Notes: generated by a model from the letters alone, not told the origin. 57,933 bases of DNA from Omnitrophica WOR_2 bacterium RIFCSPHIGHO2_02_FULL_50_17 (GCA_001805645.1 MHGQ01000049.1:6283-64215), one strand, 5' to 3'; positions 7,996-52,224 are shown, counted from the first letter of the stretch. Made by a program: numbers and translations.

Positions 7996-9213
7996 TTATG
8001 GCGACCTCAAGGTCTTAATCATATCAAACATCGGCAAAAGCATCGAGGCCATGATAAACCCCACGACAGCCCCCAGAATAACCAGCAGGATCGGCTCGAT
8101 AAGCGTCGTCAATTTGCGCACCGAGAATTTTATGGAAGTATCATACAGATCGGCCACCTTATTCAACATATAACCCAATCTCCCCGTTTCCTCTCCGACA
8201 GCAATCATCTGGACGGCATCCGGAGGGAATTCTTCGCTGACTTTGAGGGGTTCGGCAATTCTGTCGCCACGCTCAACGCCCTCGCGCACATTCCGGACGG
8301 CCTGGCCGATAATCTCGTTATTCACCACATCGCGGACAATGTCCAGAGACTGTAAGATAGGAACGCCGCTTTCGACAAGGGTCGCCAGGGTACGGCTGAA
8401 ACGGGAAATGATCACCTTGCGCACCAAAGGCCCGACCACCGGCACGTCTAGCTGCAGACGATCAAACCACAACCGTCCCATTTTTGTCTGAACATATTTA
8501 CGCATGCCAAAGATACCTAAGCCGAGTCCCAGCACAACAAGATACCATGCCTTTTTTAACCCCACGCCGAATTCATAGACAATAATGGTCGGCACGGGCA
8601 GAGACACGTTGCTCTCTTTGAAAATCTCCACGAACTGCGGGATGACAAATGTTACGATTAATATTATAACAAGAAGTCCCGCGGAAAGTAATATCATCGG
8701 ATAAAAAAAAGCACCCTGGATTTTCTGCCTTAGCTCCTCCTGTTGCTCGACATAAACCGCCAGGCGGCTTAACACCAAATTCAGTTTACCGCTTGTCTCG
8801 CCGGCCTTAACCGTATGGATAAAAACCTTAGGAAAAACACGCGCATGTTTCGCCAGGGCATCGGAGAAAGAGGACCCGGCCTCGACCGATCGGCCGACAT
8901 CCTCAATAATCCTTTTCAGCTTTTTGTTCTCGGTCTGCTGGGAGATTGTCCGCAGACTGCTGATAATCGTCAGACCCGACTCAATCATGTTTGCAAGCTG
9001 GATATTAAAAAAAATAATATCTTCAGACCGTATCCTCCTTAAGCGGCTGCCGATACCCTCCAGATTAATTCCCGGGATAGCCTCCCGAATCTGAATGGGC
9101 ATATAACCCATCTTCCGCAGTTTATCGGCCACCTCGGCCGGCGAGAGGGCGTCCAAAGTCCCCTGGACAAGCTTGCCGTTTTCGTCCCTTGCTTTGTAGA
9201 GATATGTGGACAT
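7996..9213 (-). CDS. pilC: Type IV pilus inner-membrane platform protein PilC/GspF
   Basis: MSTYLYKARDENG start at 9213 (the ORF track extension to 9297 is translated repeat); GETSGKL and GEETGRL F-domain motifs. Confidence 0.95.
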   Translation of the reverse strand: MSTYLYKARDENGKLVQGTLDALSPAEVADKLRKMGYMPIQIREAIPGINLEGIGSRLRRIRSEDIIFFNIQLANMIESGLTIISSLRTISQQTENKKLKRIIEDVGRSVEAGSSFSDALAKHARVFPKVFIHTVKAGETSGKLNLVLSRLAVYVEQQEELRQKIQGAFFYPMILLSAGLLVIILIVTFVIPQFVEIFKESNVSLPVPTIIVYEFGVGLKKAWYLVVLGLGLGIFGMRKYVQTKMGRLWFDRLQLDVPVVGPLVRKVIISRFSRTLATLVESGVPILQSLDIVRDVVNNEIIGQAVRNVREGVERGDRIAEPLKVSEEFPPDAVQMIAVGEETGRLGYMLNKVADLYDTSIKFSVRKLTTLIEPILLVILGAVVGFIMASMLLPMFDMIKTLRSP

Positions 9214-9297
9214 AGAAACTAAAGAACTAAGAAACTCAGAAACTAAAGAACTAAGAAACTCAGAAACCGAAAAATGAAAAACCAGAGAACTCAACAA
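9212..9297. repeat. Downstream arm of 8-nt periodic repeats (AGAAACTA/AAGAACTA/AGAAACTC)
   Basis: Perfect 24-nt tandem AGAAACTAAAGAACTAAGAAACTC at 9214-9237 and 9238-9261, then degenerate units. Confidence 0.95.
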
Positions 9298-9681
9298 CTA
9301 TCCTTCAGCCATTTCTTTCTTCCTCACACTGGAACAAAAGGCCTTCAATTGTCGGACTAAATTATCCGCTCTTTTCAGATATCCCTCATGCTTTCCTTCA
9401 TCAATATAGTGATCATCTAACGCACAATCCAGACACGCCACAACTTCATTGACGGAAGTTAAAGAATTATTCAAAAAGCGACTGAAATCCTTGTCTGAAT
9501 ATCGGTCAGAACCTTCGGCAATATTGAGGAGCACAGAATCAAGGGCCCTCCACAATTGCGAACTCAGCGCATATTGTTCTTCTTTGGGAAATATCTTTTT
9601 GGTCAACGTCTTTAAATCCTTACGAAACTCCCTTGCATCTTTATAAACCGGAAATTCCCGAAATCGAAAAATATTGCTCAT
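9298..9681 (-). CDS. Four helix bundle protein (23S rRNA IVP/Avd-like fold)
   Basis: 127 aa; FREFPVYKDA, FPKEEQYALSSQLWRALDSVLLNIAEG, FSRFLNNSLTSVNEV family motifs. Confidence 0.93.
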   Translation of the reverse strand: MSNIFRFREFPVYKDAREFRKDLKTLTKKIFPKEEQYALSSQLWRALDSVLLNIAEGSDRYSDKDFSRFLNNSLTSVNEVVACLDCALDDHYIDEGKHEGYLKRADNLVRQLKAFCSSVRKKEMAEG

Positions 9682-9740
9682 CTGCTTTTCTGTTTCCCGT
9701 TTTTCAGTTCTTCGGTTCTTCAGTTTCTCAATCTTTCTAT
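9682..9740. repeat. Upstream arm of 8-nt periodic repeats, inverted relative to 9212-9297
   Basis: Minus strand reads ATAGAAAGATTGAGAAACTGAAGAACCGAAGAACTGAAAAACGGGAAACAGAAAAGCAG. Confidence 0.9.
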
Positions 9741-11356
9741 TCCTCCTGCGTCACGCGCAGGACTTCCTCCTGGGATGTGAGCTTCTGCGTGACCTTCTCC
9801 AGGCCGTCCTCGCGCAGCGTCTTCATCCCCGCCTTGATCGCGGCCTTGCGGATCTCCTCGGACGAAGACTTCTGTGTAATAAGCTGCCGGATGTCCTCAT
9901 TAAGAATCATCAACTCATAGATCCCCATCCGCCCTTTATAGCCCGTATTCAGGCACGCCTTGCATCCCTTGCCTTCGCAGCCTTTACAAAAAAGCCTGAC
10001 CAGCCTCTGGGCAATCACGCCAATCACAGACGAGGAGATAAGATAAGGTTCAATCCCCATATCCAACAGCCGCGTGACGGCCCCGGGGGCGTCATTGGTA
10101 TGGAGTGTGGCAAATACCAAATGCCCTGTTAAAGCGGCCTGAATAGCGATCTCGGCCGTCTCCAGGTCTCTGATCTCGCCGACCATAATGATATCGGGGT
10201 CCTGTCTTAAAACAGAGCGCAGGCCTTTGGCAAATGTCAAATCCGCCTGGAGGTTCACCTGAATCTGACGGATGCCGTGCAAACGATACTCCACCGGGTC
10301 CTCGATCGTGATAATATTTTTCTCAGGCGTATTTAAAATGTTCAAGGAGGCATAAAGCGTTGTTGTCTTTCCCGAACCCGTCGGGCCCGTGACCAGAATA
10401 ATCCCGTGCGCCTGCTTAACGAGCTTCCGGTAGTGAGTCAGAGTCTCCCGGGCAAACCCCAGTTGCTCCAGCCCCAAAACCGCGCTGGTCGCATCCAAAA
10501 GCCGCATGACGACATTCTCCCCGTAAATGGTGGGGACACACGAGATGCGCAGGTCGATCTGTCTGTTTTCCATCTTCATGTGAAACCGGCCGTCCTGGGG
10601 CCTGCGGCGCTCGGCGATATCCAGGTTGGCCAGGACCTTGATGCGGGAAATGATCGCGGATTGAAAATGCTTCGGAGGCGACTCTTTCTCGTAAAGGACT
10701 CCGTCAATGCGGAAACGTATCGCAAGGCTCTCCTCCTGCGGCTCGACATGAATATCCGAGGCGCCTTCCCTGACAGCCTCCATCACCATGATATTGACGA
10801 GGCGCACCACGGGGGGTTCATCGGCGATACCTGCAAGACGCTTGAGCTCGACCTCTTCGCCGTCCTTGATGCCCAATTTGTGTTCATCCAACCCCTTAAT
10901 CACCTCTTCCATGCTGCCCCGCACCCCGTAGTATTCATCGAGGGCCTTCTTGATTTCCGCCTCCGTGGAGACGGCCGGCTCGACAGTCAACCCCGTATTC
11001 ATCCTCACCTCATCCAGGGCAAAAATATTCATAGGATCCGCCATCGCGCATGTAACATTCCTGCCGATCTTCAAGATGGGAATCAATTGGTATTTCCGTG
11101 CCAATACCTCCGGCACACAGTCAATGACCTTGGTGTCAATCAGATAATTGCTCAGCTCGATGCGCGGGATATCCATCTGCCTGGCCAGGAAGCTGACCAT
11201 ATCCTCTTCGCTGATGGCCCCCTTCTCAACCAAAACTTTTCTCAAAGGCCTGCCTGTCTTCCTCTCTTCTTCCTGGGCCTCCTGCCATACCTTTGAGGTA
11301 ATCACCCCCTGCTCCAGCAGCCATTCCCCTAAAGATTTTTTCTCTCGTCGTGGCAT
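9737..11356 (-). CDS. pilB: PilB/GspE assembly ATPase
   Basis: MshEN-like N-terminus, ASDIHVEP, Walker A GPTGSGKTTT, TIEDPVE, LRQDPDIIMVGEIRD, TGHLVFATLHTN, CxxC pairs. Confidence 0.95.
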   Translation of the reverse strand: MPRREKKSLGEWLLEQGVITSKVWQEAQEEERKTGRPLRKVLVEKGAISEEDMVSFLARQMDIPRIELSNYLIDTKVIDCVPEVLARKYQLIPILKIGRNVTCAMADPMNIFALDEVRMNTGLTVEPAVSTEAEIKKALDEYYGVRGSMEEVIKGLDEHKLGIKDGEEVELKRLAGIADEPPVVRLVNIMVMEAVREGASDIHVEPQEESLAIRFRIDGVLYEKESPPKHFQSAIISRIKVLANLDIAERRRPQDGRFHMKMENRQIDLRISCVPTIYGENVVMRLLDATSAVLGLEQLGFARETLTHYRKLVKQAHGIILVTGPTGSGKTTTLYASLNILNTPEKNIITIEDPVEYRLHGIRQIQVNLQADLTFAKGLRSVLRQDPDIIMVGEIRDLETAEIAIQAALTGHLVFATLHTNDAPGAVTRLLDMGIEPYLISSSVIGVIAQRLVRLFCKGCEGKGCKACLNTGYKGRMGIYELMILNEDIRQLITQKSSSEEIRKAAIKAGMKTLREDGLEKVTQKLTSQEEVLRVTQEE

Positions 11357-11374
11357 CTTATCCTCACACCTCCT

Positions 11375-11746
11375 CTAATCTTCCCCCAGCAGTTCCTTCA
11401 CTTTCCCGACCAGAAGCTGAGGGTCAAACGGCTTTGTAATATAGGCATTGGCCCCCACTTCCTTTCCCAAATCCCTGTCTTTGTCTTGAGCTCTTGCCGT
11501 AAACATGATAATCGGGATCTTGGCAAACCGGGCATCCATCTTCAAGAGCCCGCAGACCTTATAACCGTCCATCTTAGGCATCATCACATCCAGGATGATC
11601 AGATCCGGTTTTTCTTTCTTGGCGACGTCCAAGCCCTCCTGCCCGTCACAGGCCGATATCACATCATATCCATGGGCCTTCAGTCTCATCCCCACCATCT
11701 GAACAATGACTCTCTCGTCGTCCACAACTAAAATTTTCTTAGGCAT
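11375..11746 (-). CDS. Single-domain response regulator (REC only)
   Basis: MPKKILVVDDE...DLIILDVMMPKMDG...TA...KPF; start moved to 11746 from ORF track 11851. Confidence 0.93.
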   Translation of the reverse strand: MPKKILVVDDERVIVQMVGMRLKAHGYDVISACDGQEGLDVAKKEKPDLIILDVMMPKMDGYKVCGLLKMDARFAKIPIIMFTARAQDKDRDLGKEVGANAYITKPFDPQLLVGKVKELLGED

Positions 11747-12113: not shown

Positions 12114-12134
12114 CGTCTTTCCCTCCCCTTGTAA

Positions 12135-12193
12135 TCGCCGATGACACAGATGCCAGCCCCCCGATACCACATCCTTATCGGTGTCCTCAGCGG
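12135..12193. repeat. Imperfect intergenic hairpin with about 9-nt units
   Basis: TCGCCGATGACACAGAT (12135-12151) vs ATCGGTGTCCTCAGCGG (12177-12193), 13/17 complementary. Confidence 0.6.
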
Positions 12194-12199
12194 TTGCCA

Positions 12200-16999: not shown

Positions 17000-18202
17000 T
17001 TATTCCAAAAATTTTTTCAAGGCATCGAAATTCTCGCTCTCAATAAGTCTGATAACCCTGTAGAACTGCGCGACATCGAACGGCTTGACAATGTAAGAGT
17101 CAAACTTTAAGCCCTGGGACTTAAAGATCTCCTCATCTTCCTTAGAGACCGTCATAATCACAACAGGGATATCCTGCAGTAAGGAATCATTTTTTATCTC
17201 CGTTAAGACCTGTCGGCCGTCTTTCCGGGGGAGGTTTAAATCCAGGAGGATAAGATCCGGCAAAGAGACATGCGCGCGGCCTCCTTGCTCTCTGAGGATA
17301 TCCATGGCCTCGATCCCGTCTTGGGCCACCGCCAGGCGGTAGGATATCCCGCTCTCTTTCAAGGCCTCATCCGTCAGGCGCACATCGCCGGGATTATCCT
17401 CCGCGAGCAGAATTTCCAGGGGACGGCCAATCAGGATATTCGAGGTCAAAAGCCCAATCATCTTCAGGAAGGCATAGGTAAAATGCCTGAACCCCTCCGC
17501 CAGCTCCTTGGGGGGTATGTGGGGATAACGTCTTTCGACCTCATCCATCGAAAACTTCATGTCGGATAAACGGACATATTTCATAAAAGCATATCTTTCC
17601 TCTTCCAGGGAATCTTGAAGACGGCCCATCACAGTCAGGATCACCGCCTCCCCTAAAACTGATTTTATCCTTTCCATAACCAATTTATTAAAAATCATGC
17701 TGGCAAACACAAAAAAACCTTCGCGGTCGGCCTCCTCTGTCAGTTTAAGAAAGAAATGAATCTGGTTCAGGTCGATAAGCTTCTTCCCGGCCTTCCTGAA
17801 TTCCGCTTCCTCCCATATCCTGTCGATGCCTTTTAAAAAGGACTTTCTCTCCAACGGTTTGAGGATAAAGCCGTCCGCGCCGGCCTCCACGGCCTGCGCC
17901 ATGCGGGAAGTGTCTTGACGCTGGGCAAGGACAACGATGGTTAAGGGAGAGGTGCGGCGGTCATGCCGGAGCATTTTAATAAAAGAAACCGTGTCCTCCC
18001 CCAAAGAAGCCGCCCTGTCCATATCCAGGAGAAGAAGATTAAAGACATCATTCATAAGCGCCACAAAGGCCTGCTGCGCCGTCTCCACCGTCATTACCGC
18101 AAGACCATCCTCCTTCAGCCACCCCACAAGGGTCTCCCCAAGCTCCTTATCCGTTTGAAGGAGCAAAATCCTGCGCTGTCTCTCTTGTGGAATATTATCC
18201 AT
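17000..18202 (-). CDS. Dual receiver protein (REC-unknown domain-REC)
   Basis: N-terminal atypical REC (LLLLDMD...FILKP), C-terminal REC LAEDN...LDLNLPRKDG...KPF; start 18202 preferred over 18238. Confidence 0.85.
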   Translation of the reverse strand: MDNIPQERQRRILLLQTDKELGETLVGWLKEDGLAVMTVETAQQAFVALMNDVFNLLLLDMDRAASLGEDTVSFIKMLRHDRRTSPLTIVVLAQRQDTSRMAQAVEAGADGFILKPLERKSFLKGIDRIWEEAEFRKAGKKLIDLNQIHFFLKLTEEADREGFFVFASMIFNKLVMERIKSVLGEAVILTVMGRLQDSLEEERYAFMKYVRLSDMKFSMDEVERRYPHIPPKELAEGFRHFTYAFLKMIGLLTSNILIGRPLEILLAEDNPGDVRLTDEALKESGISYRLAVAQDGIEAMDILREQGGRAHVSLPDLILLDLNLPRKDGRQVLTEIKNDSLLQDIPVVIMTVSKEDEEIFKSQGLKFDSYIVKPFDVAQFYRVIRLIESENFDALKKFLE

Positions 18203-18653
18203 TTCTGCCTTTACACGACGGGAGTTTAACAACGGCAAACCAAAAATTTTCTATGGCCTGGACGATGGTTATAAACTGGTCCAAATCCATGGGTTTAATG
18301 ATGTAACAATTGGCGTAGTCCCCATAAGTCCGGGCGATGTCCTCTTCTGCCTTGGAACTTGTGAGAACGACGACGGGTATTTTTTGAAAACCGGCGTCTT
18401 CCTTGATTTCTTTTAAAACCTCACGCCCGTCTTTCTTGGGCAGGTTTAAATCCAAGAGAATAAGATCCGGCGTAGGGCGGTCAGAATAGTCTCCCCTTTT
18501 CTTTAAAAAATCCATGGCCGCCTCACCGTCCTTGACGACATAAAGATTATTGCAAACCTTGCCTTCTTTAAACGCCTCTTTCGTCAGCCGTATATCGGCC
18601 TCGTTGTCCTCAACCAACAGGATTTCGATTACTTGGAGCATATTATTGCCCAT
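18195..18653 (-). CDS. Rcp1-like single-domain response regulator
   Basis: ILLVEDNEAD, LDLNLPKKDGREVL, LTSS, ANCYIIKP; the type usually paired with SHDLQEPLR-class kinases. Confidence 0.93.
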   Translation of the reverse strand: MGNNMLQVIEILLVEDNEADIRLTKEAFKEGKVCNNLYVVKDGEAAMDFLKKRGDYSDRPTPDLILLDLNLPKKDGREVLKEIKEDAGFQKIPVVVLTSSKAEEDIARTYGDYANCYIIKPMDLDQFITIVQAIENFWFAVVKLPSCKGRNG

Positions 18654-18675
18654 ATCTTACCCCTTTCCGCACACG

Positions 18676-18839
18676 TAGTATTATCAAAAGTTTTGACTTC
18701 TAATCTGTTAATCTTCTGTGTTTTCAAACCGTTACAACAATCGAGATTCCCTCCCCCTTGTGGGGAGGGCAGGGAGGGGAATTTCTCAAAATCCCCTCAC
18801 AAGAGGAAGAGAAATTTTTCATAGAACTTTTGACACTAT
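18676..18839. mobile_element. MITE-like element (164 bp) with imperfect TIRs and 8-bp direct repeat
   Basis: TATTATCAAAAGTT (18679-18692) vs AACTTTTGACACTA (18825-18838), 12/14; flanked by CGCACACG at 18668-18675 and 18840-18847. Confidence 0.6.
18747..18780. repeat. G/C-tract palindromic repeat half-unit (BoxC-like)
   Basis: TTCCCTCCCCCTTGTGGGGAGGGCAGGGAGGGGA closely matches the reverse complement of 26591-26627. Confidence 0.75.
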
Positions 18840-18852
18840 CGCACACGCATAA

Positions 18853-26389: not shown

Positions 26390-26420
26390 AACGAATAGAA
26401 CTCCATATATGACAATATAT

Positions 26421-26454
26421 TATGTTTAACTCTCTGGGCGGAGAGTTAAACATA
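26421..26454. promoter_or_regulatory. Perfect 14-bp inverted repeat upstream of the exeA-like gene (operator or terminator)
   Basis: TATGTTTAACTCTC-tgggcg-GAGAGTTAAACATA. Confidence 0.6.
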
Positions 26455-26456
26455 TT

Positions 26457-26483
26457 TTTATACACCCGCGCCTCTTTTGTCAA
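26457..26483 (-). promoter_or_regulatory. Putative internal sigma70 promoter for exeA-gspC-secretin
   Basis: TTGACA at 26483-26478 then TATAAA after 15 nt; spacing is suboptimal. Confidence 0.4.
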
Positions 26484-26527
26484 CCAAAATTCAAATTTTT
26501 TCGTAATTGATCGAGAGAGTTCGATAG

Positions 26528-26627
26528 TTCCCCTCCCCTTGCGAGAGGGGCTAGGGGAGGGGGATCGTCGACGGAAACAGTCCTCAACTATCCCCCTCTC
26601 TGACCCTCCCCACGAAGGGGGAGGGAA
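26528..26627. repeat. Bipartite G/C-tract palindromic element (BoxC-like)
   Basis: TTCCCCTCCCCTTGCGAGAGGGGCTAGGGGAGGGGGAT ... ATCCCCCTCTCTGACCCTCCCCACGAAGGGGGAGGGAA; two inverted halves, each a small hairpin. Confidence 0.8.
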
Positions 26628-26652
26628 AAACTTGGAATAGCTTCCAGACGAA

Positions 26653-39131: not shown

Positions 39132-39167
39132 AAAAAGGGAAACAGCGCATGCGCTGTTTCCCTTTTT
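39132..39167 (-). terminator. Rho-independent terminator after gap (potentially bidirectional)
   Basis: Perfect 36-bp palindrome AAAAAGGGAAACAGCGCATGCGCTGTTTCCCTTTTT, giving U tracts on both strands. Confidence 0.85.
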
Positions 39168-39208: not shown

Positions 39209-40264
<1,056 letters not shown>

Positions 40265-40334
40265 CTATTTGTGATAAAACATTCCCTTGTTAAAAAAGCA
40301 TTCCCTTTTCCAAAATCCTTACAATGGAAAATAT

Positions 40335-42447: not shown

Positions 42448-43380
42448 CTATTCAAACCGAAATCCAACTCCGAGTTTATGCCCTGCGACAAAATCATGCG
42501 CCTCCATCGGCCTGGAGGCCTCGAAATGAACCTTTTTAATTCGCAGTCCACCTCCGGCGGCGGCGACCACAAAACCTTTCTTGTCAATTTCCGTTACTTC
42601 TCCTGAAGATACAACAGAAAAATCTTTGTCCATAACCTCGGTCTCCAGTATCTTCAGTAATTTCCCCTTATAAAAAGTATACGCCGCCGGCCACGGCAAA
42701 AGACCGCGCACAAGATTATAAATCACTTCAGCCTTACTATCCCAGCGGATACGTCCCAATTCTTTCGTCAATTTAGGGGCAAAGGTCGCCGCCTCATGCG
42801 CCTGCGGGGTCAAGGTATACGCATTTTTTTCAATTGTATCCATTGTCTCAAGAAGAAAAAACGGACATATCTGAGACATTCTAGTCCGTAATGTGACCGC
42901 GGTATCGTCCCGGGCGATGGCTATTTTTTCCTGAACCAAGATATCCCCAGCATCCAGGACAGAACTGATCTTCATAATAGAAATTCCCGTCTGCCGTTCT
43001 CCGTTGACAATTGCCCAGTTGATCGGCGCGGCCCCGCGGTATTTGGGCAGAAGGGAACTATGGACATTGACGGCAAAACGATGCGGCACCGCCAAAACCT
43101 CGTCGGGGAGAAACTGGCCGTAGGCAACCACAACAAATAAATCGCTGTCCAGGCATCTTAACTGGCTTAAAAAAACCTCATCCCGAAGACGCGTCGGCTG
43201 CAACACCAAAATCTTATGCTCCCCGGCGCACTGTTTAACCGGGGAACCGCTCACCTTCCAGCCCCTTCCCTTAGGCTTGTCAGGCTGCGTCACACAGGCT
43301 GCCACCTCATGTCTCGAGTCAATCAACGCCTTCAGATGCGCCGCGGCAAAATCATCGCTGCCAAAAAAGACAATATTCAT
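42448..43380 (-). CDS. fmt: Methionyl-tRNA formyltransferase
   Basis: FFGSDDF, TQPDKPKGRG, VVAYG, NVHSSLLPKYRGAAPI, LDAGDI. Confidence 0.97.
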   Translation of the reverse strand: MNIVFFGSDDFAAAHLKALIDSRHEVAACVTQPDKPKGRGWKVSGSPVKQCAGEHKILVLQPTRLRDEVFLSQLRCLDSDLFVVVAYGQFLPDEVLAVPHRFAVNVHSSLLPKYRGAAPINWAIVNGERQTGISIMKISSVLDAGDILVQEKIAIARDDTAVTLRTRMSQICPFFLLETMDTIEKNAYTLTPQAHEAATFAPKLTKELGRIRWDSKAEVIYNLVRGLLPWPAAYTFYKGKLLKILETEVMDKDFSVVSSGEVTEIDKKGFVVAAAGGGLRIKKVHFEASRPMEAHDFVAGHKLGVGFRFE

Positions 43381-43386
43381 AACATT

Positions 43387-43465
43387 ATCGCATGAAGCGT
43401 GAAACGTATTTCGTGAAGCGCAAAAAATATCTTACGAGATACTCTTCACGAGCGGCGCTTTACGA
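43387..43465. repeat. Intergenic hairpin of 7-nt periodic repeats (CGTGAAG-like)
   Basis: CATGAAG CGTGAAA CGTATTT CGTGAAG vs reverse complement CGTAAAG CGCCGCT CGTGAAG AGTATCT CGTAAG. Confidence 0.85.
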
Positions 43466-45310
43466 TTAAGGATCCACGTTAAGCGTTATCAGCGTGCTGT
43501 GCCTGCGTTTGAAATCTTTAATGACCGGCGTCGCATACGCCAGTATATCTTTTACCGACAGGCCTTTCAATAGAATTGTAAAACGATATTTATCCCGCAG
43601 CTTAGGATTCACATCCGGGTGCGGGTCAAGGACATCTATCCCTTGAGGTTTGCGCTTCTCCAAGCGCGCATAGAGATCCTTGGCCTGCTCAAAGACACGT
43701 TCTTCGTCGCTCCCGCGCAGTCCGACAGCCGCCAAATGTTTATAGGGAGGGAATCCCAGCTCCTGCCGGAATTTGAGCTCCTTGCGATAAAATCCATCGA
43801 AATCCCCCTTAAGGACCGCCCTCAGACAGTAGTTGTCGATCATCCGTGTCTGAACCAGCAGCTTCCTGACGGCAAACTGCCTTAAATGAACCAGGAGGGC
43901 AAAGGCCTTCTGGGCGCTGCGAAAATCCATGTGGTGCAGTTCGGCGTCAAAATTCACAACCGCCATTAAATCCACCGGAAAAGCCCCCTGTCCTTTCAAG
44001 ACCGCCTGGGTGGCAATCACCACATCCGCCTCCCGAGGGAATTCTGCCGTTTGCCGGTCGTAACGGCTGATGCGGGCATGGGGATAGAGCCGCGCCGCCT
44101 CGCTTTCCAGTTTCTCTATTCCTGTCCCGCTTGAACGCAGGTAGGAACCCGGACAGTGAGGACAAAATCCCGGCAATTCTGTCTTAAAAGAACAATGCCG
44201 GCAAACCATCCTCTTGGAGACGTACAAATACGTCAGATTGACATCGCAGCGCGGGCATTTCAGCGTCCATCCGCACTGAGGACAGCGCGTCTGTGTGCTG
44301 AAACCCTTGCGGTTCATAAATAAAACCACCTTGCCTTGCGCCGTCAGGGTCTCCTGTATCGCACTCTGTAAAGGAAAAGAAAGAATCGATGTCCGCTGGG
44401 GATTGTAATTGGTCATATCCACAGGCTGCATTTCGCTTAAACGATCCGGCTCATAGGTGATCTTTGTCCAACGCTCTTTTTTTGCCTTGTGCCATGTCTC
44501 GGCAGAAGGCGCTGAGCTGACATAAAGAAGAGAACATCCTTCACTCTGGGAGCGCATCTGCGCTATGGTCTGCGCCCGGTAATGAGGGGACTGCTCCTGT
44601 TTGTAAGCCGCATGCTCTTCCTCGTAAATAACAATCAAACCTAAAGAGGACACCGGGGCAAAAACCGCGGACCGCGTCCCCACAACGACCGTCGCCCTGC
44701 CTTCTTTGACCTTGATCCACTGCTCCAACTCCCGCGAGGAGCGCATCTTTTTATCCAGTACGATGACCGGACAGGAAACCTCTTTGAGCCTCTGCAGGAC
44801 AGATTCAATGAGCGATGCCTCGGGGACAAGAAAGATAACACGGCGTTTGGCCTCCCATACCTTTCGGATCGTCTCCAGGATAAACGGCCACCTCTTATCA
44901 GGGCTTTTGTCATGAAGCAAAATGACCTTCTTTCCCAAGGGCGCTTCGGCCTTATCTTCGCCGCAAGGCGTCCATTGAAGTTCTTTGGCCTTTCGCAGGG
45001 CCGTCGGCAGCCACGTCTGTGCGGCCTCCCCCCACGAACAGCCATAATATCTCCCGAAAGCCCTGGTGAGTTTGAGCGCCTTTTCATCAAGGGACGGATA
45101 ATCGTCGAGGATGGACAGAACAGGATTCAACGGCTTAAAGGGACTGTTCTTTTGGAATCGGACAACGACCCCTATGCTGGGGCGACGGTTAAACACCATA
45201 CGCACCCTTTGCCCCACCGCGATTCTATCCCGAAGGGATTTGCCGACAGAGTAATCGAAGGGGCCTTCGACGGGCAGGCCGACAATGACTTGTGCAATCC
45301 GTTTGTTCAT
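43466..45310 (-). CDS. priA: Primosomal protein N' (PriA) with degenerate helicase motifs
   Basis: 3'BD FDYSV, VVGTRSAVFAP, YKQE, FMNRKGFS, four CxxC, GTGIEK, FPPY; adjacent to fmt. Confidence 0.9.
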   Translation of the reverse strand: MNKRIAQVIVGLPVEGPFDYSVGKSLRDRIAVGQRVRMVFNRRPSIGVVVRFQKNSPFKPLNPVLSILDDYPSLDEKALKLTRAFGRYYGCSWGEAAQTWLPTALRKAKELQWTPCGEDKAEAPLGKKVILLHDKSPDKRWPFILETIRKVWEAKRRVIFLVPEASLIESVLQRLKEVSCPVIVLDKKMRSSRELEQWIKVKEGRATVVVGTRSAVFAPVSSLGLIVIYEEEHAAYKQEQSPHYRAQTIAQMRSQSEGCSLLYVSSAPSAETWHKAKKERWTKITYEPDRLSEMQPVDMTNYNPQRTSILSFPLQSAIQETLTAQGKVVLFMNRKGFSTQTRCPQCGWTLKCPRCDVNLTYLYVSKRMVCRHCSFKTELPGFCPHCPGSYLRSSGTGIEKLESEAARLYPHARISRYDRQTAEFPREADVVIATQAVLKGQGAFPVDLMAVVNFDAELHHMDFRSAQKAFALLVHLRQFAVRKLLVQTRMIDNYCLRAVLKGDFDGFYRKELKFRQELGFPPYKHLAAVGLRGSDEERVFEQAKDLYARLEKRKPQGIDVLDPHPDVNPKLRDKYRFTILLKGLSVKDILAYATPVIKDFKRRHSTLITLNVDP

Positions 45311-47780: not shown

Positions 47781-47782
47781 GC

Positions 47783-48904
47783 TTATCCTTTACACGAAGG
47801 ACTTAAGACTATTTCCTTAAGCGTCTCACACACGTAATCAATCTGATCCTTGGTCATATGAGGAAACATGGGAAGCGACAGGATCTCATCCGCCACATGC
47901 TCGGCGACGGGAAAATCCCCTTTCTTGTATCCCAGCTCCGCATACGCCTCCTGAAGATGCAGCGGAATCGGATAATGAATCAATACCCCGATGCCCCTCT
48001 TTTTCATCTCTTCGCAAACCTTATTGCGATGGGGCACACGCACGGCAAACGTCTGAAAGACGTGGGTGCGATCCCCTTGGATGACGGGCGTTCTCACCCC
48101 ATCCACATCCTTTAATGATTCGCAGTAATAGGCGGCATGAGCCTGGCGCATCCGGTTCCATTCATCCAAATGCGGCAGTTTGGCCAATAGAACGACGGCC
48201 TGCACCGTGTCCAGCCGCGAATTGTATCCCTTGATTGCATGGTCGTAGCGGTCTTTGCGGCCGTAATCCCGCAGCATATTGGCCTTTTCATAAATCTTCT
48301 GATCGTTGGTTACAATCATGCCGCCGTCGCCAAATGCCCCCAGCCCTTTAGTCGGATAAAAACTAAAACAAGCGACATCGCCCAGTGAACCGATCTTCTT
48401 CCCCTGATAGACAGCGCCGTGGGCCTGGGCCGCATCCTCGACAACCGTAATCTTACGCTGGCGCGCCAAATCCATAATTTCCTTCATATTCGCCGCCTGA
48501 CCATAAATATGCACAGGGATAATCGCCTTGGTCTTTGGGGTGATCAAAGATTTAAGTTTGCGCACATTTATATTGTACGTCTCCTCTTCTATATCCACGA
48601 AGACAGGGGTCGCGCCCGTATAGGAAACACACAGAGCTGTTGCGATAAATGTAAAGCAGGGGAGAATCACCTCATCCCCTACGCCGATATTCAGAGCCGC
48701 CAGCGCCAGATACAAGGCATCTGTCCCGGAATTGACCCCAACGGCATATTGAGCGTCGCAATACTGGGCAAATTGAGCCTCGAACTCCTTTTCCTCCTGC
48801 CCCAAGATGAAATCCCCGCGCTCAAAGACCTTTTTAAGGCCGACGTCAATTTGGTCTTTGATGGTGTAATACTGCTCACGAAAATCAAGAAACGGAACAT
48901 TCAT
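47783..48904 (-). CDS. DegT/DnrJ/EryC1 sugar aminotransferase
   Basis: VNSGTDAL, VEDAAQAHG, SFYPTKGLGAFGDGG with catalytic Lys, NSRLD. Confidence 0.95.
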   Translation of the reverse strand: MNVPFLDFREQYYTIKDQIDVGLKKVFERGDFILGQEEKEFEAQFAQYCDAQYAVGVNSGTDALYLALAALNIGVGDEVILPCFTFIATALCVSYTGATPVFVDIEEETYNINVRKLKSLITPKTKAIIPVHIYGQAANMKEIMDLARQRKITVVEDAAQAHGAVYQGKKIGSLGDVACFSFYPTKGLGAFGDGGMIVTNDQKIYEKANMLRDYGRKDRYDHAIKGYNSRLDTVQAVVLLAKLPHLDEWNRMRQAHAAYYCESLKDVDGVRTPVIQGDRTHVFQTFAVRVPHRNKVCEEMKKRGIGVLIHYPIPLHLQEAYAELGYKKGDFPVAEHVADEILSLPMFPHMTKDQIDYVCETLKEIVLSPSCKG

Positions 48905-50019
48905 GAAATCTTTTCCACCCTTTCTAAGACATCTTCAACCGTTATCTGCCGTAAACAGCTTATGTGTTCACAACTCGCCTTTCGAAACTGCCGGTAACAC
49001 GGCCGGCAGACTATGTCTTTCTTTATAACTATATGATTTCCTAACGGATACGGGCCGTATACCCTCTCATCCACAGGGCCAAAAATGGAAACCGTCTTTG
49101 CCCCCACCGCCACGGCCACATGCAGAGGCCCGCCGTCATTGGTGACAACCAGGGAACACCTTTGCATTAAAGCGGCGAATTGGCCCAGGGAAGTCTTCCC
49201 GCAAGTCTCAATCGGGCGGTTCTGCATCAATTGTGCTGTTTTCTCGCAAAGATCAAGCTCAACCAAGCCACCCATCAGTATAATAGTGGCTGATTTTTTT
49301 TCAACCAATTTATCAGCTAATTTTGCAAAGCATTCCGCCGGCCAGCGTTTATAGCCGGCATCCTTTCCCCAGCTCTCCCCCCCGCCTGGGATAAGGCCAA
49401 TCACCGGCCAGCCTGCCCCGCCAGCCTGCCCCGCCAACGGCGGGGCAGGCTGGCGGACGGAGATACGGTTTTCTTCCAAAAATTCGGCGGCCCACTGGAT
49501 ATCTTCCGGAATTAAAGGAAACTCCATGTCCCTGCTCTGGGCCGGCACGCCGAAGGCGGCCAGAAGATCCAGGTAATACTCCGCCACATGCCTGTCTTCG
49601 TAGCCTGCCAGAGGAATTCTTTGAGTCAGAAAAATACCGCGGCCTTTATAGTCGTATCCTATCCGGCGGGGAATCCCGGCCGCGAAAGCAAGAAAACTCA
49701 TAAAACTGTTCAAGGAAACATCCAAAACCATATCAAACCGCTCGCCCCTGATGTCCTGAATCAACCGCCGGACAGCTTTGAGGTATTGCCAGGCCGATTT
49801 CTGGCGCAGGGTCTCTAACTCATCGCGTTCATAAATAAAAATCCGGCTGATTTTAGAATTGTGCTCCAAAAGAGGAATCGTCCGGCGGTTGCACAAATAC
49901 CCAATAAAGATATCCGGATACGCCGCCTTCAAATTATTGATCAAAGGTGTTGTAAAAAGGACATCTCCGATGCCGAAAATGTTGATGAGGAGAATCCTTT
50001 GAGGAGGATTAAGGCGCAT
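48901..50019 (-). CDS. GT9 heptosyltransferase (WaaF-like)
   Basis: GIGDVLFTTP, KRWP, VTNDGGPLHVAVA, SIFGP. Confidence 0.92.
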   Translation of the reverse strand: MRLNPPQRILLINIFGIGDVLFTTPLINNLKAAYPDIFIGYLCNRRTIPLLEHNSKISRIFIYERDELETLRQKSAWQYLKAVRRLIQDIRGERFDMVLDVSLNSFMSFLAFAAGIPRRIGYDYKGRGIFLTQRIPLAGYEDRHVAEYYLDLLAAFGVPAQSRDMEFPLIPEDIQWAAEFLEENRISVRQPAPPLAGQAGGAGWPVIGLIPGGGESWGKDAGYKRWPAECFAKLADKLVEKKSATIILMGGLVELDLCEKTAQLMQNRPIETCGKTSLGQFAALMQRCSLVVTNDGGPLHVAVAVGAKTVSIFGPVDERVYGPYPLGNHIVIKKDIVCRPCYRQFRKASCEHISCLRQITVEDVLERVEKIS

Positions 50020-50041
50020 ACCTATTGAATCTCCAGTTTAT

Positions 50042-51046
50042 CTAAATAATCGTCATCCGCGCCCCGAGTTTTTTCTTCAAGGCGGCCTTGTAAATGAGGC
50101 TGGCAACGGCGGTGTCCTGAATAGCGAGCCCCGTCGAATCGAAAACGGTCACCTCACGCTCGCTCGTCCTTCCTTTCTTCCTGCCAGCCACAATCTCGCC
50201 TAAGCTCGCGTGAATATCCTTGAGCTTAAAAATCCCTTTTTGGACAGGCACGTTGATTTCGCCGCTATGAGCGGCCTGGGCGAAATCATCCACCACCACC
50301 TTGGCCCTTTTTAAAATCTTGGGATCCAATTCTTCCTTGCCCGGCGCATCCGCCCCGATAGCGTTGATATGGGTGCCTTCTTTGATCCATCCTGATTGGA
50401 CAAGGGGAACGCGCGAGGGCGTTGTCGTCACCACGATATCCGCGCCTTCAACACATTCCCGGATGGTCGCGGCGGCAATCATCGCTTCCTTCTTTTTCTT
50501 CATCGCGCGGATAAATTTTTGAATCAAAGCCTTCTGGGGGCCCCACACGCGCACTTCCTTAATCTTAAAAATTTCGTGAAGCCCCGTAAGCTGTGCGCGC
50601 GCCTGAACACCGCAGCCGACCAATGCCACGATTTCAGAATTTCTTCGCGCCAAAAATTTGGCGGCCACCGCCCCGCCCGCGCCGGTTCGAAGGCTTGTGG
50701 CCAGCGTCCCGTCCATAATGGCCAGGGGAAAACCGGTTTGGGGATCGCTGACAATCATAACCGCCATGACCGCCGGAAGTCCGAAGACCGCGTTTTTCGG
50801 GTGCGCGTTGACCCACTTGAGGGTACAGAGGTTGAATTTGCGCACGTAGGAGGGCATCGCACGAAAGTCACCCGAAAACTCTTTGAGGTCTAGATAAATC
50901 TTCGGCGGCATCTGCGCCCGGCCCAAACCGTATTCCCGAAACGCCTCTTCCACCGCCCCAATGGCGCTTTTGACGTTAACAACCTTCGCGACGTCTCTTT
51001 GACTAAGGATTAAAGTTTCGTGTTTGGGCATGAGCAATGGATGCAT
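50042..51046 (-). CDS. Ornithine cyclodeaminase/mu-crystallin family, archaeal-type alanine dehydrogenase-like
   Basis: MPPKIYL, DFRAMP, LKWVNAHP, TSLRTGAGG, GCGVQA, GADAPGKEE, FDSTGLAIQD. Confidence 0.88.
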   Translation of the reverse strand: MHPLLMPKHETLILSQRDVAKVVNVKSAIGAVEEAFREYGLGRAQMPPKIYLDLKEFSGDFRAMPSYVRKFNLCTLKWVNAHPKNAVFGLPAVMAVMIVSDPQTGFPLAIMDGTLATSLRTGAGGAVAAKFLARRNSEIVALVGCGVQARAQLTGLHEIFKIKEVRVWGPQKALIQKFIRAMKKKKEAMIAAATIRECVEGADIVVTTTPSRVPLVQSGWIKEGTHINAIGADAPGKEELDPKILKRAKVVVDDFAQAAHSGEINVPVQKGIFKLKDIHASLGEIVAGRKKGRTSEREVTVFDSTGLAIQDTAVASLIYKAALKKKLGARMTII

Positions 51047-51054
51047 TCCTATTA

Positions 51055-52104
51055 TTATTGTTCCGAACGATTCTTTTGTTTTAAAAAAGCGGCCAAATTT
51101 TTGACGTCTTGTGACAAATGTTTAGGACAAATCAAAAGGGCGTCAGAGGTATCAATAACGACCAGATCGTTTAAACCAATGGCGGCGACAAGACGTTGAT
51201 GGGCCCAAATCAGCGTGTCCCGGCAATCTAGGGAGACGACGTTGCCCCGCATTGTGTTACCTGCTTTGTCTTTAGGTAGAATTTCAAAAAGCGCCTCCCA
51301 GCTTCCCAAATCCGACCAGCCGATGCCGGCGGCTGAAACCGCCACAACATTAGAAGCCTTCTCTAATATACCGTAATCAACCGAGATGTTTGGCAGGCGA
51401 TTCCAAATCTTCTGGATAGGATCCTGACGATCCGCCCCCCCGACGTCGGCATAAATGGAAGGCAGATATTTCTTGAAGGCACGCAGGATAACTTCTGCCT
51501 TCCATACGAACATGCCGCTGTTCCACAGGTAACCCCCATTTTTCAAAAATTGTTTGGCCTTGACAAAATTCGGCTTCTCGATAAATTTTTCGACGTGTAA
51601 AACATTCTTGTCCTGTTTGGTTTTCAAATAGCCGTAGCCGGTTTCGGCGCGCGCGGGAACGATTCCGAAAGTAACGAGATACTCCTGCTGGGCCAGGTCA
51701 ACCGCTTTTTCCAGAAGCCGCAAAAATTTCGTGCGGTTGGCAATGAGGTGATCCGACGGCAAGACAACCATGACCGCGTGGGGATTCACGGCGTGGATGC
51801 GCGCCGCGGCCCAACCAATCGCCGGCGCTGTATTCTTCGCGCTGGGTTCCCACAATACCTGGGAGGCCCGCACCCCGAACCCGGCTGTATGACGTTTGAT
51901 TTCTTTCCGGTAGCGGCGGTTGGCGACAATCCAGATGTTTCCCGCAGGCACTTTCGGCGCGATGCGGCGGATCGTCTGGCACAGCAGGCTTTCTTTGCCG
52001 ACGAGATTCAGAAACTGCTTGGGCCGGCTCTGGCGGCTGGCCGGCCAGAACCGCGTGCCGGAACCACCGGCCAGGATGACGGCGTGTAAATTATTTATAC
52101 CCAT
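51055..52104 (-). CDS. manC: Mannose-1-phosphate guanylyltransferase
   Basis: LAGGSGTRFWP.SR..PKQF, EP..KNTAPAI, LPSDH, ETGYGY, FIEKP, WNSGMF, WSDLGSW. Confidence 0.95.
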   Translation of the reverse strand: MGINNLHAVILAGGSGTRFWPASRQSRPKQFLNLVGKESLLCQTIRRIAPKVPAGNIWIVANRRYRKEIKRHTAGFGVRASQVLWEPSAKNTAPAIGWAAARIHAVNPHAVMVVLPSDHLIANRTKFLRLLEKAVDLAQQEYLVTFGIVPARAETGYGYLKTKQDKNVLHVEKFIEKPNFVKAKQFLKNGGYLWNSGMFVWKAEVILRAFKKYLPSIYADVGGADRQDPIQKIWNRLPNISVDYGILEKASNVVAVSAAGIGWSDLGSWEALFEILPKDKAGNTMRGNVVSLDCRDTLIWAHQRLVAAIGLNDLVVIDTSDALLICPKHLSQDVKNLAAFLKQKNRSEQ

Positions 52105-52224
52105 TGTTTCCCAAAAAGGTTAAAAAAAGTTATGGGATGTTGGAAAAGGTTTCAAAAAGATTTGGGGGTCAAACCTGTTTCAACTTATTTCAACCTCTTC
52201 CAACATTTTTCAACCTTAAACAAT
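52103..52224. repeat. Intergenic hairpin of 10-nt periodic repeats (AAGGTTGAAA-like)
   Basis: Arms 52116-52164 and 52170-52217 with a 5-nt loop; outer 7-bp IR ATTGTTT/AAACAAT. Confidence 0.85.

What the first reader, a model, noticed from the sequence alone, without database searches (positions are those of the whole stretch)
9212..52224. Candidate system: periodic-repeat hairpins at gene junctions, one loaded and three empty
Seen: four junctions (pilB/pilC, kinase/REC, priA/fmt, GT2/manC) carry imperfect inverted arms made of short repeat units of different period (8, about 9, 7 and 10 nt). Each starts at or within 7 nt of the upstream stop and ends shortly before the next start or SD. The units are unrelated in sequence, so these are not copies of one MITE, yet they share one architecture. 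Only one holds a passenger gene. Inference: a single mechanism builds or captures such arms and inserts them at stop/start junctions. The empty hairpins would be scars or non-autonomous forms of four-helix-bundle-type cassettes.
Basis: partly seen in the sequence, partly recalled or inferred. Interest (0 to 1): 0.82.

Follow-up and report, generated by a model that had tools for sequence, protein, structure and literature searches.

The report
Repeat-armed hairpin cassettes at gene junctions
A small selfish-looking gene, of the family found inside ribosomal-RNA intervening sequences, sits exactly between two pilus genes and is bracketed by hairpin arms built from 8-base tandem units; related genes in several phyla show the same layout, two of the three 'empty' hairpins are gene-less insertions of similar design, and the third is an ordinary miniature transposon.

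Summary
All four junctions carry real sense-strand hairpins. Only J1 (pilB/pilC, 8-nt units) and J4 (GT2/manC, 10-nt units) have clearly periodic arms. J3 (priA/fmt) is marginal. J2 (kinase/REC) is not periodic: it is a 164-nt MITE-like insert with an 8-bp target duplication.

J1 encloses a PF05635/TIGR02436 four-helix-bundle gene, the family encoded in 23S rRNA intervening sequences and related to DGR Avd.

The layout is family-wide. In 38 of 41 homologous cassettes from Omnitrophota, Patescibacteria and other MAGs, a 7- or 8-nt periodic segment abuts the gene (5% of control windows). All 8 distant cyanobacterial plasmid homologues examined have periodic repeats beside the gene; in six of them complementary arms lie on both sides. 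Empty hairpins with the same units lie next to loaded ones.

Syntenic relatives have 0-19 nt where J3 and J4 sit, so both are insertions filling the stop-to-start gap. The pilB/pilC junction occurs tight, empty-hairpin or loaded in different lineages.

Best reading: an IVS-like cassette whose slippage-built arms zip up in the operon mRNA, plus gene-less hairpins of the same class. Nothing shows that J3 or J4 ever held a gene. The mechanism is inferred. I found no paper linking this gene family to such arms.

The parts
9682..9736 (-). J1 5' arm: purine-rich array of 8-nt units (GAAGAACN type). It runs from directly after the pilB stop (UAG, 9737-9739) to the passenger start codon.
   Evidence: Period 8, P<0.001. 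It pairs with 9214-9297. Another assembly of the same population (L002) carries a 16-nt, two-unit insertion here.
9298..9681 (-). Passenger gene, 127 aa: PF05635 23S_rRNA_IVP / TIGR02436 four-helix-bundle protein, related to Avd.
   Evidence: Pfam E 1.5e-26 and NCBIfam E 1e-25. PDB relatives are 2GSC and 2RLD, each deposited with five chains. Hundreds of homologues at 65-82% identity occur in MAGs from several phyla.
9214..9297 (-). J1 3' arm: pyrimidine-rich array of 8-nt units (AGTTTCTN type). It ends at the pilC AUG (9211-9213) and contains an exact 24-nt (three-unit) duplication.
   Evidence: TRF reports period 8/16/24, with the 24-nt unit 100% identical over 2.2 copies. Period 8, P<0.001. 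The stem base pairs the pilB UAG region opposite the pilC AUG region.
52105..52215 (-). J4: ORF-less hairpin between the GT2 stop (UAA, 52216-52218) and the manC AUG (52102-52104). The 5' arm is 52169-52215 (GTTGAAANAN x4-5), the loop is 52161-52168, and the 3' arm is 52106-52160.
   Evidence: Fold -37.4 kcal/mol, z -3.0. Period 10. The syntenic relatives L078/L079 have a 19-nt spacer at this junction. No terminator-like site. Sense RNA folds at -32.3 against -23.8 kcal/mol for antisense.
43381..43465 (-). J3: 85-nt insertion between the priA stop and the fmt start. It holds a 54-nt hairpin (43411-43464) with CGTGAAG-like motifs on both arms. Periodicity is marginal.
   Evidence: Fold -25.2 kcal/mol, z -2.1. 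Period 7 in the 3' arm only, P=0.014. Syntenic relatives have 5 nt (L075) or overlapping TAATG (L078) at this junction. The sequence is identical in 7 assemblies of the population.
18676..18839 (-). J2: 164-nt MITE-like element, which does NOT belong to the periodic-hairpin class. It has imperfect terminal inverted repeats (ATAGTGTCAAAAGTT ... AACTTTTGATAATACTA), inner GC-rich hairpins, and 8-bp direct repeats CGTGTGCG on each side at 18840-18847 and 18668-18675.
   Evidence: An empty site with a 27-nt spacer exists in L110 (kinase 85% identical). The site is filled in L111 (76% identical). A related partial copy lies at another junction, L110 14673-14816. No periodicity.
9737..11356 (-). pilB (T2SSE ATPase), the gene upstream of J1. 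Its last codons contain AGGAGG just before the stop.
   Evidence: Pfam. In relatives with a tight junction the equivalent purine-rich stretch lies 9-14 nt before the pilC AUG.
7996..9213 (-). pilC (T2SSF platform protein), the gene downstream of J1. It starts at the AUG at 9211-9213, with no Shine-Dalgarno sequence in the 15 nt upstream.
   Evidence: Pfam. Sequence read. The orthologue start is aligned.

Best explanation
What it is. J1 is an IVS-like gene cassette. A PF05635 (Avd-related, four-helix-bundle) gene is bracketed by inverted arms that are arrays of an 8-nt unit. The cassette sits precisely between the pilB stop and the pilC start of a type IV pilus operon. J4 clearly, and J3 possibly, are ORF-less hairpins of the same design. 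Both were inserted in this lineage between a stop and the next start. J2 is unrelated: it is a MITE-type DNA transposon remnant.

How it works (inferred). In the polycistronic transcript the two arms pair into a long, imperfect stem that contains G-U pairs. This stem loops the insert out and puts the upstream stop codon directly opposite the downstream start codon. That could act in two ways:
- The downstream gene stays translationally coupled, because a terminating ribosome opens the stem base.
- The stem is cut by a double-strand-specific RNase, as happens when RNase III excises rRNA intervening sequences that carry the same gene family.
Either way, an insertion into an operon junction becomes tolerable.

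How the arms evolve. They grow, shrink and drift by whole-unit slippage (shown). They stay complementary, either through selection on the RNA stem or through templated repair (inferred).

How cassettes spread. They move horizontally together with their arms. This is inferred from arm type tracking protein subclade and from the patchy distribution. The integration mechanism is unknown.
For: Shown:
- Passenger family.
- The arms pair across the open reading frame. In the 541-nt fold they form the enclosing stem, and the arms-only construct folds at -52.9 kcal/mol, z -4.0. UAG and AUG both lie in the stem base.
- J4 has the same geometry, with stop and start in the stem base.
- Family-wide layout. 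38 of 41 homologous cassettes have a 7- or 8-nt periodic segment abutting the gene, against 27 of 575 control windows. The two flanks are complementary at z <= -2.5 in 29 of 41. Both arms share one period in 37 of 39.
- The eight distant cyanobacterial plasmid homologues examined (32-39% identity) sit between operon genes such as cas6/cas4, cmr2/cmr3 and nrdB/nrdA. All have periodic repeats beside the gene; six have complementary arms on both sides.
- Unit-level changes: a 16-nt insertion in L002 and an exact 24-nt duplication. The arms of the orthologous cassette in L101 and of L110 keep period 8 but have diverged in sequence.
- J3 and J4 are absent from syntenic relatives, which have 0-19 nt there. 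The pilB/pilC junction is tight in most relatives.
- The sense-strand duplex is more stable than the antisense in 24-25 of 36 cassettes (P 0.01-0.06) and at all four window junctions. J1 gives -44.7 against -30.8 kcal/mol.
- No terminator-like site at any junction, and no Rfam family.
- The flanking genes are co-oriented with the passenger in 31 of 36 cases upstream and 33 of 36 downstream.

Precedent: the Coxiella IVS has the same gene family, a 28-bp terminal stem and RNase III cleavage (PMC4990558). 23S_rRNA_IVP open reading frames occur in Patescibacteria rRNA inserts (PMC11270868).
Against: - There are no RNA data. Processing, coupling and even co-transcription are untested.
- The sense/antisense asymmetry is modest.
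- Co-orientation is expected anyway in genomes with long same-strand gene runs. At least one plasmid cassette (Nostoc, nrdB/nrdA) is antisense to its neighbours.
- Some cassettes have other topologies. In L105 and L109 the open reading frame lies between two complete hairpins. L011 and L021 have direct arrays.
- The J3 and J4 units resemble no loaded cassette. Their kinship to J1 rests on architecture only. J3 is barely periodic.
- Period 10 (J4) was seen nowhere else: all 38 cassettes with a periodic segment have period 7 or 8.
- The 5' and 3' arms of J1 differ in length (55 and 84 nt).
Confidence: 0.5

Rival explanations
1. DNA-level mobile elements. The periodic arms are terminal inverted repeats of non-autonomous elements (MITE- or REPIN-like). 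A hairpin-recognising transposase or recombinase encoded elsewhere moves them in trans. Passengers are cargo, and the empties are the minimal mobile form.
For: - The insertions are precise relative to their relatives.
- Distribution across lineages is patchy, and the passenger is more conserved (82%) than the flanking PilC (64%).
- Cargo includes toxin-antitoxin pairs (DUF433/DUF5615, AbiEii, MNT/HEPN, HicA) as well as PF05635.
- The genome does host a real MITE, J2.
Against: - J1, J3 and J4 have no target-site duplication, unlike J2.
- Each hairpin has its own unit sequence rather than belonging to a near-identical family.
- No transposase lies in or next to any cassette examined.
- The many G-U pairs weaken a DNA hairpin but not an RNA one.
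Confidence: 0.2
2. No system. The periodic hairpins are simple-sequence repeats that arise in place by replication slippage in intergenic DNA, like cyanobacterial heptamer (STRR-type) arrays. J3 and J4 are independent local products with at most generic effects on mRNA stability. J1's arms belong to its cassette, and the resemblance among junctions is coincidental.
For: - Whole-unit insertions and deletions, and an exact recent duplication.
- Unit sequences differ at each site.
- Intergenic heptamer arrays close to start codons are known in Beggiatoaceae, Cyanobacteria, Bacteroidetes and Xanthomonas. Their function is unknown, and related species lack them at the same junctions (PMC4679880, PMC4692102).
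- J3 is statistically marginal.
Against: - Slippage alone makes direct arrays. It does not explain a complementary array on the other side of a gene or loop in 29 of 41 cassettes and in J4.
- Periodic segments are strongly tied to PF05635 genes: 38 of 41 against 5% of control windows.
- Only J1 and J4 carry such segments in 58 kb.
Confidence: 0.2
3. Ordinary intrinsic terminators or attenuators between genes.
For: They are hairpins placed after stop codons.
Against: - No terminator-like site is called at any of the four junctions.
- The stems are long, AT-rich and imperfect, with no U-tract. In J1 and J4 they run into the next start codon.
- The window's terminator-like palindrome at 39132-39167 looks quite different: a perfect 18-bp GC-containing stem flanked by T/A runs.
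- Relatives have overlapping or near-overlapping, presumably coupled genes at these junctions.
Confidence: 0.03

Closest known systems
23S rRNA intervening sequences (IVS) that carry an S23p/PF05635 open reading frame (Leptospira, Coxiella burnetii; also found in Patescibacteria rRNA inserts)
   Same: - Same protein family inside.
- The open reading frame is enclosed by terminal inverted repeats that form a long stem in the transcript.
- Both gene-containing and short gene-less versions exist.
- Distribution is sporadic, which suggests horizontal transfer.
- Excision by RNase III is documented for the rRNA versions (PMC4990558, PMC11270868).
   Different: - Here the host transcript is an mRNA, and the site is an intercistronic stop/start junction rather than an rRNA helix.
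- The arms are tandem arrays of 7-10-nt units. To my knowledge this has not been reported for rRNA IVS stems.
- RNase III processing is untested here.
Intergenic short tandem repeats of 7 nt: cyanobacterial STRR/heptamer arrays (STRR from my own knowledge), TAACTGA repeats of Beggiatoaceae (PMC4679880), GGGAATC repeats of Xanthomonas/Nostoc (PMC4692102)
   Same: - Same unit size range.
- Intergenic location, often ending within a few nt of a start or stop codon.
- Variable copy number.
- Absent from the same junction in close relatives.
- Found in lineages that also have PF05635 genes. The Nostoc, Calothrix and Picosynechococcus plasmid cassettes examined here are flanked by just such heptamers.
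   Different: - These repeats are described as direct repeats of a few genome-wide unit sequences.
- The papers I could read report no pairing into inverted arms and no link to enclosed genes.
- Here each junction has its own unit, and the arrays come as complementary pairs.
MITEs and REP/REPIN elements
   Same: - Small intergenic hairpin-forming insertions that lack a transposase.
- J2 fits the MITE definition (target duplication, terminal inverted repeats, second copy).
   Different: J1, J3 and J4 have no target duplication, no multi-copy sequence family and internally periodic arms.
Integron gene cassettes with attC hairpins
   Same: - Promoterless, co-oriented small cassettes with imperfect hairpin recombination sites.
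- Cargo is rich in toxin-antitoxin pairs and small unknown genes. L011 looks like an array of such modules.
   Different: - No integrase was seen.
- The arms bracket the gene rather than forming one attC downstream.
- Sites are scattered in operons rather than gathered in one array.
- attC core motifs were not examined.
DGR accessory protein Avd
   Same: The passenger belongs to the Pfam family that also matches Avd. The solved relative 2GSC is a pentamer of four-helix bundles, and Avd is structurally homologous to it (PMC10053308).
   Different: There is no reverse transcriptase, template repeat or variable repeat next to the gene. The neighbours are pilus genes.

Membership tests
IVS-type element with PF05635 ORF | Encodes a 23S_rRNA_IVP / TIGR02436 four-helix-bundle protein | tested here: met
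   PF05635 E 1.5e-26 and TIGR02436 E 1e-25 for 9298-9681. Applies to J1 only.
IVS-type element with PF05635 ORF | Terminal inverted repeats form a stem that encloses the ORF in the transcript | tested here: met
   The arms pair across the open reading frame in the 541-nt fold. The arms-only construct folds at -52.9 kcal/mol, z -4.0.
IVS-type element with PF05635 ORF | Inserted in a helix of an rRNA gene | tested here: not met
   The element lies between pilB and pilC. No rRNA or any other Rfam family is found in the window.
IVS-type element with PF05635 ORF | Excised from the precursor by RNase III | not testable with these tools
   Needs RNA end-mapping or an in vitro cleavage assay.
STRR/heptamer-type intergenic tandem repeats | Tandem units of about 7 nt in non-coding DNA next to genes | tested here: inconclusive
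   The window's periods are 8 (J1), 10 (J4) and a weak 7 (J3). Related cassettes have period 7 or 8. The cyanobacterial ones carry true heptamers.
STRR/heptamer-type intergenic tandem repeats | The same unit sequence recurs at many places in the genome | tested here: not met
   Within the 58-kb window and all fetched loci, the J3 and J4 units are unique. The rest of the genome could not be scanned.
MITE | Short element without an ORF, with terminal inverted repeats, a direct target-site duplication and related copies elsewhere | tested here: met
   Applies to J2 only. The element is 164 nt, with an 8-bp CGTGTGCG duplication. The site is empty in L110 and filled in L111, and a related copy lies at L110 14673-14816.
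MITE | Target-site duplication and a multi-copy family (applied to J1, J3, J4) | tested here: not met
   Comparison with empty orthologous junctions shows no duplication. No other copies were found.
Intrinsic terminator | Short GC-rich stem followed by a U-tract | tested here: not met
   No terminator-like site at any of the four junctions.
DGR (Avd as accessory gene) | Avd gene adjacent to a reverse transcriptase and template/variable repeats | tested here: not met
   The genes around J1 are response regulators and type IV pilus genes. The rest of the window was not fully annotated.
Integron cassette | attC site with conserved core motifs, and an IntI integrase with attI | not tested
   No integrase appeared among the genes examined. 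The attC motifs were not searched for.

The most novel reading that the evidence does not exclude
PF05635 genes with their tandem-repeat arms may form a cross-phylum class of self-insulating mobile cassettes. They would home to hairpin-forming sites, that is rRNA helices and operon stop/start junctions alike, by an RNA- or hairpin-dependent route. One such route would have the Avd-like protein recruit a reverse transcriptase to the excised stem-loop RNA. On this reading, the long-unexplained intergenic heptamer arrays of cyanobacteria, Xanthomonas and Beggiatoaceae, and hairpins such as J3 and J4, are the cassettes' landing pads or empty relics.
Probability: 0.15. Interest if true: 0.9.

Novelty: new variant of a known kind. 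Interest (0 to 1): 0.7.

Why it matters
- **A function-less family gets a testable role.** PF05635/TIGR02436 proteins are among the commonest bacterial proteins without a known function. They are known mainly as the odd reading frame inside rRNA intervening sequences and as relatives of the DGR protein Avd.
- **The rRNA case may be a special case.** The same gene, with the same stem-enclosed layout, sits routinely in mRNA junctions of operons across Omnitrophota, Patescibacteria and Cyanobacteria. That would make the rRNA IVS one instance of a general 'insert that loops itself out of its host transcript'.
- **A concrete hypothesis for heptamer repeats.** Intergenic heptamer repeats have been described since about 1990 (from my own knowledge) without a function. 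This reading proposes one.
- **A rule for tolerated insertions.** Stop and start are held together by the arms. This would explain how selfish genes enter essential operons (pilus, cas, nrd, def/fmt) without polar damage.
- **Annotation.** Several database proteins carry false N-terminal extensions that are translated arms.

Tried and rejected
- **Rfam.** Gathering thresholds over the whole window gave no family.
- **Terminator scan.** Nothing at the four junctions, so the terminator reading was rejected.
- **Other copies of J2, J3 and J4.** I searched for other copies, and for the J4 unit, in the window and in 83-100 fetched loci. J3 and J4 have none. J2 shares only a 24-nt GC hairpin with 26604-26627. 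A variable-gap pattern search over the loci returned nothing even where a match is expected, so I do not rely.
- **Phage collection.** No homologue of the passenger.
- **Length polymorphism of J3 and J4.** Among 7-10 other assemblies of the same population there is none. J4 has one SNP, in an unpaired stretch.
- **Outer stem limits from duplex folding of 130-nt flanks.** The prediction over-extends into coding sequence, so those 'gap' numbers were discarded. A tighter version is noisy, because alternative start codons lie inside the arms. It gave 14 of 20 cassettes with the stem within 10 nt of both stop and start.
- **Unit-complementarity test.** The cross-cassette control is weak, because many cassettes share unit families: 30 of 37 within cassettes against 53% across.
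- **J2's outer 'stem with G-U pairs'.** I first read it as RNA structure. Comparison with the empty site shows it is the direct target duplication CGTGTGCG, which happens to be self-complementary through G-U pairs.
- **Literature.** Seven searches found no paper linking PF05635/S23p/four-helix-bundle genes to periodic or heptamer arms. The library is incomplete, so this is absence of evidence only.

Full report
**Source and layout**

The window is part of contig MHHB01000084.1 of GCA_001805855.1. A protein from the same 68,234-nt contig is named as coming from Omnitrophica WOR_2 bacterium RIFCSPLOWO2_12_FULL_50_9. All substantial genes lie on the - strand.
- pilB (9737-11356, T2SSE) and pilC (7996-9213, T2SSF)
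- a HisKA/HATPase kinase (18853-20787) and a receiver protein (18195-18653)
- priA (43466-45310) and fmt (42448-43380)
- a GT2 glycosyltransferase (52216-53082) and manC (51055-52104)

**Checking the observation**

All four junctions fold into hairpins on the sense RNA. Periodicity is uneven.
- J1: both arms have period 8 (P<0.001).
- J4: both arms have period 10 (P<0.001 and 0.018).
- J3: only the 3' arm is weakly periodic (period 7, P=0.014).
- J2: no periodicity at all.

A uniform scan finds three periodic segments in the 58 kb. All three are in J1 and J4, against 0.18 expected. None of the junctions has a terminator-like site, and Rfam finds nothing.

In J1 the 5' arm starts right after the pilB UAG, and the 3' arm ends at the pilC AUG. 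In the fold the two codons face each other at the base of a stem of roughly 60 pairs. J4 has the same geometry: the GT2 UAA abuts the first unit and the manC AUG lies in the stem.

**The passenger**

ORF 9298-9681 (127 aa) is a PF05635 / TIGR02436 four-helix-bundle protein. Its solved relatives are 2GSC and 2RLD. This family is encoded inside 23S rRNA intervening sequences, where terminal inverted repeats form a stem cut by RNase III (PMC4990558). The family also occurs in rRNA inserts of Patescibacteria (PMC11270868). It is also the Pfam family that matches the DGR protein Avd (PMC10053308). No reverse transcriptase lies nearby; the neighbours are pilus and two-component genes.

**The layout is family-wide**

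This is the main new result. The passenger has hundreds of homologues at 65-82% identity. I fetched 44 loci from species-representative genomes: Omnitrophota, many Patescibacteria, WOR-1/Saganbacteria and others.
- In 38 of 41 usable cassettes a segment of period 7 or 8 abuts the gene, on both sides in 23. Control windows from the same loci give 27 of 575.
- The two flanks are complementary at z <= -2.5 in 29 of 41.
- Both arms share one period in 37 of 39.
- Arm type tracks the protein subclade. Arms of 8-nt GAAGAACN/GAAAAACN units go with the closest homologues, and 7-nt TGACAWT units with a more distant group.
- Some database proteins have N-terminal extensions (for example KTEELKNERT) that are simply translated 5' arms.

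Nine distant homologues (32-39% identity) were found on cyanobacterial plasmids, and I examined eight. Three of them sit between cas6/cas4, cmr2/cmr3 and nrdB/nrdA. All eight have periodic repeats beside the gene. Six have complementary arms on both sides; Nostoc, for instance, has AGTAGGG x7 against CCCTACT x5, -82 kcal/mol, z -8. In Pseudanabaena (L081) the complementary arrays both lie upstream, and in Calothrix (L112) the 3' array is too short to score. These are heptamer arrays of the kind long known in cyanobacteria.

**Empty forms and other cargo**

ORF-less hairpins built from the same unit as a neighbouring loaded cassette occur in the following loci:
- L032 (1622-1701 and 5128-5255)
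- L033 (1628-1713)
- L040 (3800-3911, 4355-4533, 5498-5562)
- L045 (5938-6103)
- L105

Others have their own units:
- L007 (5041-5117)
- L029 (1642-1740)
- L055 (2725-2801)

Periodic arms also accompany toxin-antitoxin pairs: DUF433/DUF5615 in L006, AbiEii in L008 (nested with a PF05635 gene), and MNT/HEPN and HicA in L011.

Periodic segments are about five-fold enriched outside long open reading frames. This estimate is conservative.

**Orthologous junctions**

*pilB/pilC:*
- Tight (0-25 nt) in L050, L051, L052, L054-L063 and L066, which have PilC 45-68% identical, and in L111.
- An empty hairpin of 7-nt units (GGTCAGY against GCTGAAA) in L053.
- Loaded in L101-L104. There the passenger is 82% identical while PilC is only 64% identical.
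- Loaded independently in L015 (PilC 31% identical) and L047 (27%).
- L110, the closest relative by kinase identity (85%), has a similar 5' arm with a different unit order.

*priA/fmt and GT2/manC:*
- Syntenic relatives have 5 nt (L075) or an overlap (L078/L079) at priA/fmt, and 19 nt at GT2/manC.
- J3 and J4 are therefore insertions specific to this lineage. No target duplication is visible.
- A loaded cassette sits at def/fmt in the Parcubacteria locus L036. L026 looks the same from its flanking sequence, though I did not run Pfam on its neighbours.

**Dynamics**

Another assembly of the same population has two extra units (16 nt) in the J1 5' arm. The 3' arm contains an exact three-unit duplication. 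J3 and J4 are fixed in length in 7-10 assemblies of the population.

**J2 is something else**

Compared with the empty site in L110 (27-nt spacer), the window and L111 carry a 164-nt insert (18676-18839). It has imperfect terminal inverted repeats and 8-bp direct repeats CGTGTGCG on each side. A related partial copy lies at a different junction in L110. This is a MITE-type DNA insertion. The 'outer stem with G-U pairs' is the target duplication.

**Mechanism**

*Shown:*
- the anatomy of the hairpins and the cassette
- the family-wide association between PF05635 genes and periodic arms
- the insertional nature of J1, J3 and J4
- unit-wise change in the arms
- the absence of terminator features

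*Weakly supported:*
- RNA-level function. The sense duplex is more stable than the antisense in 24-25 of 36 cassettes (P 0.01-0.06) and at all four window junctions. Predicted stems contain 2-16 G-U pairs.

*Inferred:*
- The stem loops the insert out of the operon transcript and keeps stop and start adjacent, which preserves coupling. In J1 the AGGAGG at the end of pilB and the pilC AUG, 530 nt apart in sequence, meet at the stem base.
- Alternatively, or in addition, the stem is cut by RNase III as in rRNA IVSs.

How cassettes integrate is unknown.

**Rivals**

- Trans-mobilised DNA elements.
- In-place slippage products with no common system.
- Terminators (rejected).

**Novelty**

Intervening sequences with this gene, and intergenic heptamer repeats, are each known (PMC4990558, PMC4679880, PMC4692102). 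I found no report that links them, or that describes PF05635 cassettes with periodic arms in operon junctions. I therefore rate this a new variant of a known kind. The caveat is that the literature I could search is incomplete.

Noticed in passing
window 18676-18839 (flanking repeats 18840-18847 and 18668-18675); L110 14673-14816; L111 4334-4533: J2 is a MITE-like element with an 8-bp target duplication. The site is filled in the window and L111 but empty in L110, which is the closer relative. A related partial copy sits between a receiver gene and pilB in L110.
   Followed up: yes
window 26390-26652: A 263-nt intergenic region with nested GC-rich hairpins (MFE -102.8 kcal/mol). It includes a CCCTCCCC...GGGGAGGG palindrome that also forms the core of the J2 element (26604-26625 against 18749-18769). 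It may hold further MITE copies, or be a promoter/leader region.
   Followed up: partly
window 39132-39167: A perfect 18+18-nt palindrome (AAAAAGGGAAACAGCGCA/TGCGCTGTTTCCCTTTTT) with A and T runs on either side. It looks like a bidirectional intrinsic terminator and shows what ordinary terminators look like in this genome.
   Followed up: no
window 49407-49456: A 13-nt unit GCCAGCCTGCCCC repeated 2.3 times, overlapping a perfect 18-bp inverted repeat. The whole feature lies inside ORF 48901-50019.
   Followed up: no
window 40276-40315: A 19-nt tandem repeat (AAAACATTCCCTTGTCAAA, 2.1 copies) in the 151-nt intergenic region upstream of gene 39209-40246. It may be an operator or promoter repeat.
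   Followed up: no
L015, L047, L033, L029, L032, L040, L101-L104, L053 (junction regions): PF05635 cassettes and periodic hairpins turn up repeatedly inside type IV pilus clusters of unrelated lineages: pilB/pilC, pilB/pilin, pilC/pilin, and between pilins. L045 (pilC/pilin) was read from the sequence only. A second recurrent site is immediately upstream of fmt. Whether this reflects targeting or tolerance was not tested statistically.
   Followed up: partly
L110 16436-16558: After pilB come a J1-like 5' arm and the first three codons of the passenger (ATGAGCAAT). The sequence then switches to a CCCTCCCCC hairpin element and the contig ends. The passenger may be interrupted by a MITE in this relative.
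   Followed up: no
L006 200-1270: A DUF433/DUF5615 toxin-antitoxin pair is flanked by a direct duplication of the last ~30 nt of the upstream gene plus its 5' arm. The 3' arm of the following hairpin is read as part of the N-terminal hydrophobic segment (GLLTFDFRLLTFDYGL) of the downstream 590-aa protein.
   Followed up: partly
L011 100-3500: In a WOR-1 genome there is a run of small modules separated by same-sense GAAGAACN arrays and by a repeated ~60-nt GC-rich junction sequence. The modules are PF05635, an unknown 181-aa protein, MNT/HEPN and HicA. The arrangement looks like a cassette array.
   Followed up: partly
P0005, P0070, P0080: Database gene calls for several homologues begin inside the 5' arm. 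This gives false N-terminal extensions rich in K/T/E/N, which are translated repeat units.
   Followed up: yes
window 1-57933: Every substantial gene in 58 kb is on one strand, and GC skew is negative throughout, so cumulative skew falls steadily. This is consistent with a long co-directional stretch on one replichore.
   Followed up: no
L050 16631-19513: The closest syntenic relative at the pilus locus has about 2.9 kb more than the window between the orthologues of genes 2506-3066 and 1565-2509. I did not examine this segment.
   Followed up: no
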